A stretch of DNA of 63,990 bases, filler included, from Pirum gemmata (taxonomy: Eukaryota), in the NCBI GenBank assembly GCA_002812295.1. It is 24 parts of 24 records of this genome, joined end to end, with 100 filler letters (N's around TTAATTAATTAA, not from the genome) between each part and the next. Parts side by side here need not be neighbours in the genome. Positions count along the whole stretch, not along the records: positions 38,796 to 41,946 come from PDIN01006011.1; 23 more parts are not named here. One strand, written 5' to 3'. A program made the position numbers and the translations under genes. A model generated the notes under the pieces. The model searched no databases. It was not told where the DNA came from and worked only from the letters and a program-made list of their open reading frames with translations. Every line of letters begins with the position of its first letter. The first letter of the stretch is position 1. This document shows positions 39,128-41,255 of the stretch, piece after piece.

Positions 39128-39457
39128 ATGCTTACTATTCATTGTAAAAAAATGTTCAGATTTTGCACAACTTCGTATGTACAGTTAAACTTGCACAAAA
39201 AATTTGGAGGTATAAAAACTGTACAAGTACGTTTTAATTCGTCCATCAAGCAATTGAGCGAAGCTCAAGTTGTTCATTCTGTTGATAATGCCTTAATCAA
39301 AAAAGGATGGATTTTAAATCCCAAAGACACAAAACGTAATGTAACAAAAGAATTTTTCATAAAAAGTACTAAAAAAAAGGCGGATTTCGTTTTGGAGGAT
39401 GCAGATAATGGTAATAAGGTATTGGTAGTAATTGAAGTAAAAAGAAGTAAAAAATGA
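39128..39457 (+). CDS. N-terminal part of a fused R-M protein: presequence-like leader + HsdR_N-type PD-(D/E)xK nuclease
   Basis: LSEAQV...L.KKGW, KADFVL and VVIEVK. Removing one A from the A6 run at 39449-39454 continues into NDLGKGLNQAISYCSMLGSNIAFSTDG (QxxxY and T[D/N]G motifs), in the frame of the next ORF. Confidence 0.82.
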   Translation: MLTIHCKKMFRFCTTSYVQLNLHKKFGGIKTVQVRFNSSIKQLSEAQVVHSVDNALIKKGWILNPKDTKRNVTKEFFIKSTKKKADFVLEDADNGNKVLVVIEVKRSKK

Positions 39458-39497
39458 TCTCGGTAAAGGCTTAAACCAAGCAATTTCCTATTGCTCT

Positions 39498-41255
39498 ATG
39501 CTTGGTTCGAATATTGCGTTTTCTACCGATGGTGATTACATCCGTTCTGTGTATATACCAACTGGCGAGGAGTTGAAAGTGGATGGTAATCTTTTAGAAG
39601 AGTTTCCCACTCTTGAAGAGCTCCATATTTTAATTGCAGGAAATGGAACGGCATGGCAATTTGAATCAGGAAACGAGGAAGATGCAAAAGAAATTTTGAC
39701 TAAATTTTTTAAAGAGTCTAACGAACTCTTTCGTATACATGGCTTACAGTCAGGCAAAGAACGCTTTGATTTTTTAGCCAATTTGGTGTTTCTGAAGTTC
39801 TGGAGCGAGAGGGAGCATAGTACAAAATGCTTGATACTGATTAGTGATGACGTTACGAATAAAATTGAAATATACAATGATACCATCCGTAAAGAACTTC
39901 GAGAGAAATATGACCACGACTTTCCAGAATTGCCGGATAAATTTGAGAATTTGTTTAAAGAGCTACTAGTCAAAATTAAGGACATTAAATTCAAAAAATA
40001 TGATTCGGACATTGTTGGAAATTGCTTCGAATATTTTATACATACAAGTAGCACCGATTACAAAGAGTTTGGTGAATATTATACTCCTAAACGATTTGTG
40101 ACGGCATGCATGAGAATTTTAAAGCCTACCTTGTTAAAGACAATCTATGATCCATTTTGTGGCACAGGTGGTTTTTTAATAGAAGCTTTTAAAGCCCTTT
40201 CCAAAGACATTGCAGGAGACGAAAGAAAAATGCAAATATTAAAACGAGATACTTTATATGGTTCGGAAATCACCAGCAATGCACAAATAGCCAAAATGAA
40301 TATGATTTTAAGAGGTGATGGACATGGGAAAATACTTCAGCAAGATAGTTTAAAGAACAAAGTAGAAAAAAAATACGATTACATTCTAACTAACATACCT
40401 TTTGCTCAGAAAACAAATTACAATTATTTATACGGTCTACCAAATGGTGATTCCAAACCAGCGGATGGTTCTTGTGTTTTACATTGTCTTGAAGCGACAA
40501 AACAAGGTGGGCAAATGACTATGATAGTACCGATTGGTTTCATATCTAATAGTTCTCATTACAAGTTAGCCAAAGAAAAACTGTTTACAAAAGCTAAATT
40601 AGAGATGGTTATTTATCTTCCTAAAAATGCATTTAAGCCTTACACTTTAACACAAACAGCTATATTGGTTTTAAGTGATGCACATCGTAAGGGGCGTGGC
40701 GAAAAAAATGACTTCGTTTGGATATACAAATGGACCAATGAGTCACGGACTTCGAAAGTTTTACGTGATTTGGCTAAATTCGATAAAGAAGATGAAGAAG
40801 CCGAGTTAAGAGATATAGGGTTTCAAAAAAAATACCTTGACAAAAACTTTAAACTTAAACCCATTACCAATAATATGCAGGAGACGGAGGAAGTAAAATG
40901 TGTATCATTACGTGACTTGGTAACAATGGGTATACTTGGTTATGGTCGTGGGAAAAATTGTAAAAACCGAGATCAGACGGAAGTTGGGAACTTTATATTT
41001 CCGATTGTTAGCGGAGGTAAGAAAAATTTCGGTTACAGTGATAAGCCAAACTTTGATGAAGCAAAGAAAAAAATTACTATAGCTTGTAGTGGAACTGCGG
41101 GTTTAGTACAATATTTTGAAAAACCAATTTTCGTCGGACCGCATGCAATGGCTGTTTACTTAACGCACGAAAAGAGGCTTTTAATGGAATATTTATATTA
41201 TAAGATAAAAGATCAAGAAATGGAGGTATTTTTTTTTGTTGTTGTTATTGACTAA
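39498..41255 (+). CDS. N6-adenine DNA methyltransferase (HsdM / type IIG-like, gamma class) fused to an HsdS-like target recognition domain
   Basis: GNCFEYF, motif X GEYYTP, motif I IYDPFCGTGGFL, LYGSEI, AKMNMILRGDG, motif IV TNIPF and IYLPKNAFKPYT. The C-terminal FPIVSGG..FGY.D..N....ITIACSGTAGLVQY is TRD-like. A possible GT donor (GAG|GTATTT) lies at 41226. Confidence 0.93.
   Translation: MLGSNIAFSTDGDYIRSVYIPTGEELKVDGNLLEEFPTLEELHILIAGNGTAWQFESGNEEDAKEILTKFFKESNELFRIHGLQSGKERFDFLANLVFLKFWSEREHSTKCLILISDDVTNKIEIYNDTIRKELREKYDHDFPELPDKFENLFKELLVKIKDIKFKKYDSDIVGNCFEYFIHTSSTDYKEFGEYYTPKRFVTACMRILKPTLLKTIYDPFCGTGGFLIEAFKALSKDIAGDERKMQILKRDTLYGSEITSNAQIAKMNMILRGDGHGKILQQDSLKNKVEKKYDYILTNIPFAQKTNYNYLYGLPNGDSKPADGSCVLHCLEATKQGGQMTMIVPIGFISNSSHYKLAKEKLFTKAKLEMVIYLPKNAFKPYTLTQTAILVLSDAHRKGRGEKNDFVWIYKWTNESRTSKVLRDLAKFDKEDEEAELRDIGFQKKYLDKNFKLKPITNNMQETEEVKCVSLRDLVTMGILGYGRGKNCKNRDQTEVGNFIFPIVSGGKKNFGYSDKPNFDEAKKKITIACSGTAGLVQYFEKPIFVGPHAMAVYLTHEKRLLMEYLYYKIKDQEMEVFFFVVVID

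What the first reader, a model, noticed from the sequence alone, without database searches (positions are those of the whole stretch)
39128..41255. Bacterial-type fused restriction-modification enzyme (nuclease + N6-MTase + TRD) embedded in a eukaryotic contig
Seen: across one frameshift, the gene encodes an HsdR_N-type nuclease (ADFVL..IEVK..QAISY..TDG), a complete gamma-class MTase motif set and an HsdS-like TRD. It is flanked on both sides by host-type sequence: (ATT)n and (AACAAT)n microsatellites, CTAG-rich patches and a TTAGGG tract. Known: this R-M-S single-chain architecture is typical of prokaryotic type IIG/type I-like systems and some giant viruses, and is not part of the normal eukaryotic repertoire. 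Inference: horizontal acquisition, with possible use in 6mA marking or anti-DNA defence. The NIPF version of motif IV resembles a family I recall from intracellular alphaproteobacteria, which needs confirming.
Basis: partly seen in the sequence, partly recalled or inferred. Interest (0 to 1): 0.9.

Follow-up and report, generated by a model that had tools for sequence, protein, structure and literature searches.

The report
Bacterial restriction enzyme with mitochondrial-type leader
The genome of a single-celled relative of animals holds two diverged copies of a bacterial-type DNA cutting-and-methylating gene, likely gained by horizontal transfer, that share an added leader predicted to target mitochondria; the copy seen here has two one-base breaks and is likely inactive.

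Summary
The fused nuclease + N6-adenine methyltransferase + single recognition domain is real, and all six nuclease motif residues are kept. Corrections: the window is 24 small scaffolds joined by artificial linkers; (AACAAT)n, CTAG and TTAGGG lie beyond an N gap; there are two one-base shifts, not one; about 68 C-terminal residues are missing, homology ending at a splice-donor-like GT. The locus matches a gene model labelled Pirum gemmata (ichthyosporean). A second model from that proteome is a paralogue: 66% identical in the recognition domain, ending at the same residue, and sharing an N-terminal extension that 108 of 112 prokaryote-type relatives lack. In this copy the extension has nine K/R, no D/E, and ends in an R-2/R-3-like site just before bacterial homology starts: a presequence-like leader, untested. 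The protein sits on a very long branch; no donor is resolved, and NIPF is not diagnostic of alphaproteobacteria. The same architecture is already reported in Reticulomyxa, and a mitochondrion-encoded R-M system in katablepharids. What would be new is a nucleus-encoded, mitochondrion-targeted R-M enzyme (about 30%). No reads could be examined, so expression and the breaks are unverified.

The parts
38796..38849 (+). 54-base exact copy of the methyltransferase interior 40070-40123 at the scaffold start; likely an assembly-graph branch (collapsed partial tandem copy or chimeric join)
38899..38962 (.). (ATT)n microsatellite, contiguous with the gene, about 137 bases before ATG 39099
39099..39128 (+). 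First ten codons of the N-terminal extension, 9 of 10 identical to the start of paralogue P0364; a one-base shift at the A7 run 39122-39128 separates them from the ORF1 frame
39128..39259 (+). Rest of the extension in the ORF1 frame (ATGs at 39128 and 39152); no D/E, basic and S/T-rich, ends in RFNSS about five residues before homology to bacterial enzymes starts; presequence-like
39260..39448 (+). First half of the PD-(D/E)xK nuclease domain (E, D, ExK kept)
39449..39454 (+). A6 run with the second frame break (stop TGA follows in the ORF1 frame); the public gene model bridges it with a 37-base intron (39411-39447) that removes the ExK motif
39453..40000 (+). Second half of the nuclease domain (QxxxY, TDG) and helical linker domain
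40002..40778 (+). Gamma-class N6-adenine methyltransferase domain (GEYYTP, DPFCGTGG, NIPF)
40887..41225 (+). HsdS-like target recognition domain, first two thirds; 66% identical to paralogue P0364, which ends at the same residue
41226..41301 (+). GTATTTT.. then T, CA and TA repeats up to the N gap; likely the start of an intron (or a truncation junction)
   Evidence: splicing is inferred, not shown
41323..41946 (.). Host-type repeat contig ((AACAAT)n, CTAG patches, TTAGGG) joined across a 21-N gap; no coding remnant of the missing tail

Best explanation
This is a bacterial-type single-chain restriction-modification gene (nuclease, adenine methyltransferase, one recognition domain) that was likely transferred long ago into the nuclear genome of an ichthyosporean, likely gained there a leader predicted to target mitochondria, and is present as two diverged copies, of which the one in this window has two one-base breaks and is likely inactive. 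Mechanism of the intact form, all inferred: the leader is imported and cut at the R-2/R-3-like site, releasing a protein that begins where the bacterial enzymes begin; two chains pair through the C-terminal helix (in the missing tail, probably a further exon), recognise a symmetric bipartite site as HaeIV does, methylate its adenines in resident mitochondrial DNA and cut unmarked DNA such as foreign mitochondrial genomes or plasmids. My odds by step: host-integrated rather than contaminant 0.9; under selection after arrival 0.75; leader is or was a presequence 0.45; this copy inactive 0.65.
For: Shown: domain order and motifs; confident fold (mean pLDDT 84.8) matching Type I M, M-S fusion and Type IIB/IIG structures. 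All six nuclease motif residues conserved in 101-106 of 112 relatives are kept, and 595 codons of ORF2 are stop-free at 29-38% identity to relatives. End branch 1.79 against a next longest of 0.73, 2.51, 3.08: no close prokaryotic source. Paralogue P0364, labelled with the same organism: 93 of 140 identical in the TRD region, only in-frame gaps; random drift to 66% identity left about 3.8 stops per 130 codons in simulation. Extension shared: 21 of 40 identical without gaps across the first break; 13 of 30 in the ORF1 frame, reached by 0 of 100000 shuffles, against 3 of 30 without the shift. 108 of 112 relatives have 14 or fewer residues before the first conserved E; this copy has 44 from ATG 39128. 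Extension: 9 K/R, 0 D/E, 9 S/T in 54 residues; the full feature set arose in 22 and 19 of 8000 random stop-free leaders under two base models. These features define presequences (PMC7723863, passages), and lysine-rich ones work (PMC3578813, passages). Relatives stand alone: no HsdR motor or separate HsdS among 57 scanned proteins of 14 loci. R-M enzymes can act on mitochondrial DNA (PMC8099122, passages).
Against: No targeting predictor could be run; my criteria were set after seeing the sequence, and absence of D/E alone arises in 683 of 8000 host-composition leaders. Only 2 of the 9 basic residues are R; the best hydrophobic moment in the first 30 residues is modest (5.6 over 18 residues). 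The paralogue model has one D in its first 40 residues and jumps from there to the TRD, so its cleavage site, nuclease and methyltransferase are unseen and it may be a pseudogene too. The Atlas gave no hit at 0.9 or more for the leader. CpG observed/expected is 1.03 against 0.48-0.86 in six other ORFs of the window, so the gene is not fully host-like; codon usage does not discriminate (r 0.82 with host ORFs, up to 0.90 for AT-rich bacterial relatives). No transcript-derived or other-species copy turned up; both eukaryotic clusters have one member. The intron at 41226 is inferred from a GT and the shared end point only. No reads were seen.
Confidence: 0.4

Rival explanations
1. A functionless or selfish insertion: the gene came with a mobile element or endosymbiont DNA, multiplied, and is decaying; the extension is captured upstream DNA or a DNA-level conserved 5' region with no targeting role.
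For: Two frame breaks here; the paralogue model lacks the middle of the protein; only 81 of 116 family-conserved columns are kept against a median of 114; CpG not depleted; the first ten codons are far more alike (9 of 10) than the next thirty (13 of 30), as a conserved DNA element would be; a possible partial tandem copy.
Against: Catalytic residues kept on a very long branch, 595 stop-free codons, mostly conservative changes; stop-free 66% paralogue; no transposase or repeat ends on the scaffold.
Confidence: 0.25
2. A domesticated nuclear or cytosolic adenine methyltransferase with the nuclease switched off: the 37-base intron of the gene model is real, removes the ExK motif, and translation starts at ATG 39152; the basic extension serves nuclear import or DNA binding.
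For: The public model P0001 has this structure and an open frame; the methyltransferase motifs are intact; eukaryotes acquired N6-adenine methyltransferases from prokaryotes at least 13 times (PMC4738411, abstract and passages).
Against: The 37 bases are purine-rich, unlike the A/T-rich acceptors at other ORF starts of the window, and still encode a family-conserved motif; the model's other small intron (51 bases) removes a stretch that the paralogue keeps as coding, so the model looks ab initio; no clustered basic signal is shared by the two extensions.
Confidence: 0.2
3. Remnant of an endogenised giant virus or other large DNA virus that carried the enzyme.
For: Long branch, no introns in 2.1 kb, high CpG; giant viruses encode fused M-S proteins of similar fold; another ichthyosporean has many giant-virus insertions (PMC11244446, passages).
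Against: The giant-virus proteins are only 11-18% identical against 29-38% for prokaryote-type relatives; IMG/VR relatives are 34-41% identical, no closer than bacterial ones; that paper reports no reliable giant-virus hit in P. gemmata; no second viral gene on the scaffold.
Confidence: 0.08
4. Contaminant bacterial DNA joined to host repeats by the assembler.
For: Tiny scaffold, a 54-base duplicated end and an N gap; no read check was possible.
Against: Microsatellites are contiguous on both sides, 137 bases upstream and directly downstream; no neighbouring bacterial gene; no relative above 41% identity other than the two eukaryote-labelled models in the trees' input; a second copy with the same non-bacterial extension and end point.
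Confidence: 0.07

Closest known systems
Single-chain Type IIG/IIB enzymes with one TRD, HaeIV organisation 2 x R~gammaM~TRD (PMC3874165 and PMC4027205, passages)
   Same: Domain order nuclease, gamma-methyltransferase, HsdS-like TRD in one chain; no motor domain; relatives stand alone.
   Different: HaeIV itself was not aligned; this family is about 730-770 aa with one TRD or 930-980 aa with two. This copy adds an N-terminal extension, has two breaks and lacks the last ~68 residues. Site and cleavage are unknown.
Group-2 Clade 5 N6A methyltransferases of Reticulomyxa (PMC4738411, section 9)
   Same: Same architecture (methyltransferase + S domain, one with an N-terminal nuclease), several copies in a eukaryotic assembly, kin in bacterial endosymbionts; a Reticulomyxa protein (P0177) belongs to the same family.
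   Different: P0177 has a short branch inside the clade with a Rickettsia-named protein (83% to its nearest row), whereas this protein has a 2.5 branch and no placed sister; no leader is mentioned in the section read.
Mitochondrion-encoded Type II R-M systems of katablepharids (PMC8099122, passages)
   Same: Bacteria-derived R-M activity in mitochondria, proposed to bias organelle inheritance or block foreign DNA.
   Different: Those are two-gene HpaII/MutH-like systems with cytosine methyltransferases encoded in mitochondrial DNA and shown active; this is one adenine-methylating chain, encoded outside the mitochondrion (5 TGG, 0 TGA codons; table 4 does not open the break), targeting only predicted.
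DAM-carrying retrotransposons and viral DAMs in eukaryotes (bioRxiv 10.64898/2026.05.21.726589, first fifth of the text)
   Same: Prokaryote-derived adenine methyltransferases in eukaryotic genomes, including an ichthyosporean.
   Different: A different methyltransferase family, carried by retroelements or viruses; no retroelement domain lies on this scaffold.

Membership tests
Type IIG single-chain R-M | Gamma-class N6-adenine methyltransferase motifs in order | tested here: met
Type IIG single-chain R-M | N-terminal PD-(D/E)xK nuclease domain with catalytic residues | tested here: met
   E, D, ExK, QxxxY kept; 86 bits read through the break with X
Type IIG single-chain R-M | Nuclease and methyltransferase in one continuous reading frame | tested here: not met
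   Break at 39449-39454 in the assembly; whether it is in the organism's DNA is unverified
Type IIG single-chain R-M | Complete TRD with dimerisation helix | tested here: inconclusive
   Methylase_S profile 2-114 of 168; ~68 residues absent from the window, possibly a further exon
Type IIG single-chain R-M | Methylation and fixed-distance cleavage at a defined site | not testable with these tools
   needs enzyme assay
Type I R-M | ATP-dependent motor (HsdR) and separate M and S subunits | tested here: not met
   No motor on the scaffold or beside relatives in 14 loci, 57 of 70 long ORFs scanned
Mitochondrial presequence | N-terminal 20-60 residues, basic, lacking acidic residues | tested here: met
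   9 K/R, 0 D/E in 54 residues; 6 K/R, 0 D/E in 36 from ATG 39152; definition from PMC7723863
Mitochondrial presequence | Arginine-rich, positively charged amphiphilic helix | tested here: inconclusive
   Only 2 R; moment 5.6 early and 6.8 near the end, no benchmark set
Mitochondrial presequence | R-2 or R-3 cleavage site at the start of the mature domain | tested here: met
   RFNSS about five residues before bacterial homology begins; not visible in the paralogue model
Mitochondrial presequence | Import and processing in cells | not testable with these tools
   needs a fusion or N-terminal proteomics
Rickettsiales-derived transfer | Supported nesting among Rickettsiales sequences | tested here: inconclusive
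   Three trees place the query differently without support; AU test does not reject
Endogenous giant virus | Viral neighbours and closest kin in giant viruses | tested here: not met
   the scaffold is only 3.1 kb, so neighbours are barely sampled

The most novel reading that the evidence does not exclude
An animal relative has domesticated a bacterial single-chain restriction-modification enzyme as a nucleus-encoded, intron-bearing, mitochondrion-imported self/non-self system: the nucleus marks its own mitochondrial DNA with 6mA and destroys unmarked genomes, with duplicated recognition domains diverging to new sites. At least one copy is, or recently was, active.
Probability: 0.3. Interest if true: 0.85.

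Novelty: new variant of a known kind. Interest (0 to 1): 0.52.

Why it matters
Restriction-methylation has long been proposed as a way to bias organelle inheritance (discussed in PMC8099122, passages), and the shown case is encoded in mitochondrial DNA. A nuclear gene that sends a whole R-M enzyme into mitochondria would give the nucleus direct control of which mitochondrial DNA survives, and would explain how a eukaryote tolerates an active restriction nuclease. It is directly testable in a culturable lineage. My paper searches for such a case and for this organism with methyltransferases listed none, but the library is partial. If the leader is not a targeting signal, this is a further, decaying example of a transfer already described in Reticulomyxa.

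Tried and rejected
No whole genome is held and no sequencing runs were obtained, so depth, linkage, expression, splicing and the two breaks remain unchecked. Shorter-protein search (122 hits of 1814 candidates), paralogue search (only itself of 13 candidates) and metagenome scan (0 of 127 stretches) found no further eukaryotic copy besides the Reticulomyxa protein. Atlas search of the leader: no hit at 0.9. Codon usage: uninformative. A test of paralogue identity against family conservation in the TRD returned no usable columns. Table 4 does not open the break, so a recoded mitochondrial gene was dropped. The careful tree did not finish; quick trees are reported; rows shorter than 550 residues and near-duplicates above 75% were dropped, and 68 and 38 rows were hand-picked. 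Earlier-findings look-ups returned nothing. The gene model's two small introns were rejected as probable prediction artefacts. Supplements of the papers were not read; those of PMC4738411 list eukaryotic members and may bear on novelty.

Full report
Context. The window is not one contig: 23 identical linkers (N44-TTAATTAATTAA-N44) join 24 scaffolds of about 2.5 kb. The finding lies on scaffold 38796-41946, which has a 21-N gap at 41302-41322. Only (ATT)n upstream and a T/CA/TA tail downstream are contiguous with the gene. Other scaffolds carry eukaryote-type ORFs: amino-acid transporter, ankyrin, LRR and cysteine-rich membrane proteins. The best database hit, P0001, is a gene model of this very locus (100% over residues 1-86, 97% over the rest, the difference being a predicted intron) and is labelled Pirum gemmata, an ichthyosporean (PMC11286789, passages).

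The gene. ORF2 has N6_Mtase (E 1.3e-38) and two thirds of Methylase_S; PADLOC ranks Type I methyltransferase and Type IIG models. The other 119 listed hits (2650 hits among 7996 scored candidates) are 29-38% identical and, where named, prokaryotic. Against 112 non-redundant relatives the protein keeps the nuclease E, D, ExK and QxxxY and the methyltransferase motifs, but only 81 of 116 strongly conserved columns (median of relatives 114, minimum 84). A nuclease-domain profile scores 86 bits read through the break at 39449-39454 with X, 37 on each half, and 60 on the gene model, whose 37-base intron deletes ExK. The AlphaFold model of ORF2 is confident (84.8, pTM 0.76) and matches Type I M subunits, an M-S fusion and the Type IIB/IIG enzymes BsaXI and BpuSI. 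In 14 loci of relatives (57 of 70 long ORFs scanned) there is no HsdR motor or separate HsdS; 3 of 14 have a separate methyltransferase nearby and 2 an unrelated-type helicase besides a UvrB. The family thus works like the HaeIV organisation, a single chain with one TRD acting as a dimer on a symmetric site (PMC3874165, passages); that step is inference.

The 3' end. Homology stops at 41225; 27 of the 40 furthest-reaching alignments leave 67-79 residues, 9 leave 155-277 (two-TRD forms) and 4 other lengths. The next bases are GTATTTT and simple repeats up to the gap. A profile of the missing tail finds nothing in the window. An intron is the simplest reading, but it is not shown.

The paralogue. 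The exhaustive profile search (6256 hits; best 150 listed) returned P0364, a second model labelled with the same organism. It is 66% identical over 140 residues of the TRD region and ends at the same residue. Its first 40 residues match the window from ATG 39099: 9 of the first 10, then 13 of 30 in the ORF1 frame (0 of 100000 shuffles; 3 of 30 without a shift), which reveals a second one-base break at 39122-39128. So the extension and the end point predate the duplication. Random drift to 66% identity gave about 3.8 stops per 130 codons, so the stop-free TRD match favours selection after duplication, modestly (chance about 0.02).

The leader. 108 of 112 relatives have at most 14 residues before the first conserved E; the four exceptions have 20, 21, 44 and 90, the last two being stop-to-stop extractions. 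This copy has 44 from ATG 39128 and ten codons more from 39099. The extension has 9 K/R, no D/E and 9 S/T and ends in RFNSS about five residues before bacterial homology starts. Both copies keep M-x-R at positions 19-21, a possible second start. These are the stated marks of presequences (PMC7723863, passages); lysine-based ones exist (PMC3578813, passages). In random stop-free leaders the whole set arose in 22 and 19 of 8000, acid-free plus nine basic residues in 148 and 111, acid-free alone in 683 and 159; for 36 codons, 10 of 3298, and 0 of 15093 segments of relatives. The criteria were chosen after seeing the sequence, no trained predictor was available, arginine is scarce and the Atlas search was blank. 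I put the presequence reading at 0.45.

Origin. The query is by far the longest branch and its position changes between trees without support. Giant-virus look-alikes are 11-18% identical, IMG/VR relatives 34-41%, and a published scan found no reliable giant-virus hit in this species (PMC11244446, passages). Codon usage does not separate host from AT-rich bacteria, and CpG is not depleted as in the other ORFs, which argues against full amelioration.

Comparison. The architecture in a eukaryotic assembly is known from Reticulomyxa (PMC4738411, section 9), whose protein here sits on a short branch among endosymbiont-type sequences. Active R-M in mitochondria is known from katablepharids, encoded in mitochondrial DNA (PMC8099122, passages). 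Searches listed no nucleus-encoded, mitochondrion-targeted R-M enzyme; the library is partial and supplements were not read.

Verdict. A real, old, duplicated transfer of a single-chain R-M gene into an ichthyosporean, with a shared presequence-like leader; the copy in this window is broken twice in the assembly and cut at its 3' end. New variant of a known kind; interest 0.52, and 0.85 if mitochondrial targeting holds.

Noticed in passing
window 28471-30965: This scaffold begins and ends with the same 96 complex bases: a circular element or a collapsed tandem unit; rich in CTAG (22) with no ORF of 100 codons.
   Followed up: no
window 37065-38695: Long intronless ORF with cysteine clusters, a KGKG repeat and a Q-rich tail; no Pfam or NCBIfam family. 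It lies on a different scaffold from the finding.
   Followed up: partly
window 17096-17575: Exon-like stretch matching Amidoligase_2 (E 1.3e-05), a family with a patchy spread in eukaryotes by my recall.
   Followed up: no
window 52426-54129: 567-codon ORF with no Pfam or NCBIfam family.
   Followed up: partly
whole window: TTAGGG/CCCTAA tracts occur inside many scaffolds (60 hexamers in 23307-25774) along with CTAG-rich patches: interstitial telomere-like repeats are ordinary host sequence here.
   Followed up: no
window 60937-61578: ORF that reads like the end of a retrotransposon integrase region; no Pfam hit; the likeness is recalled, not tested.
   Followed up: no
P0177: The Reticulomyxa member of this family is 83% identical to its nearest row in a clade with a Rickettsia-named protein, which raises the question whether it is a recent transfer or endosymbiont DNA in that assembly.
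   Followed up: partly
L001-L075: 75 of the 80 best viral-collection loci carry what looks like one near-identical member of this family (same match span and identity), in L001 beside a repressor-like gene.
   Followed up: no
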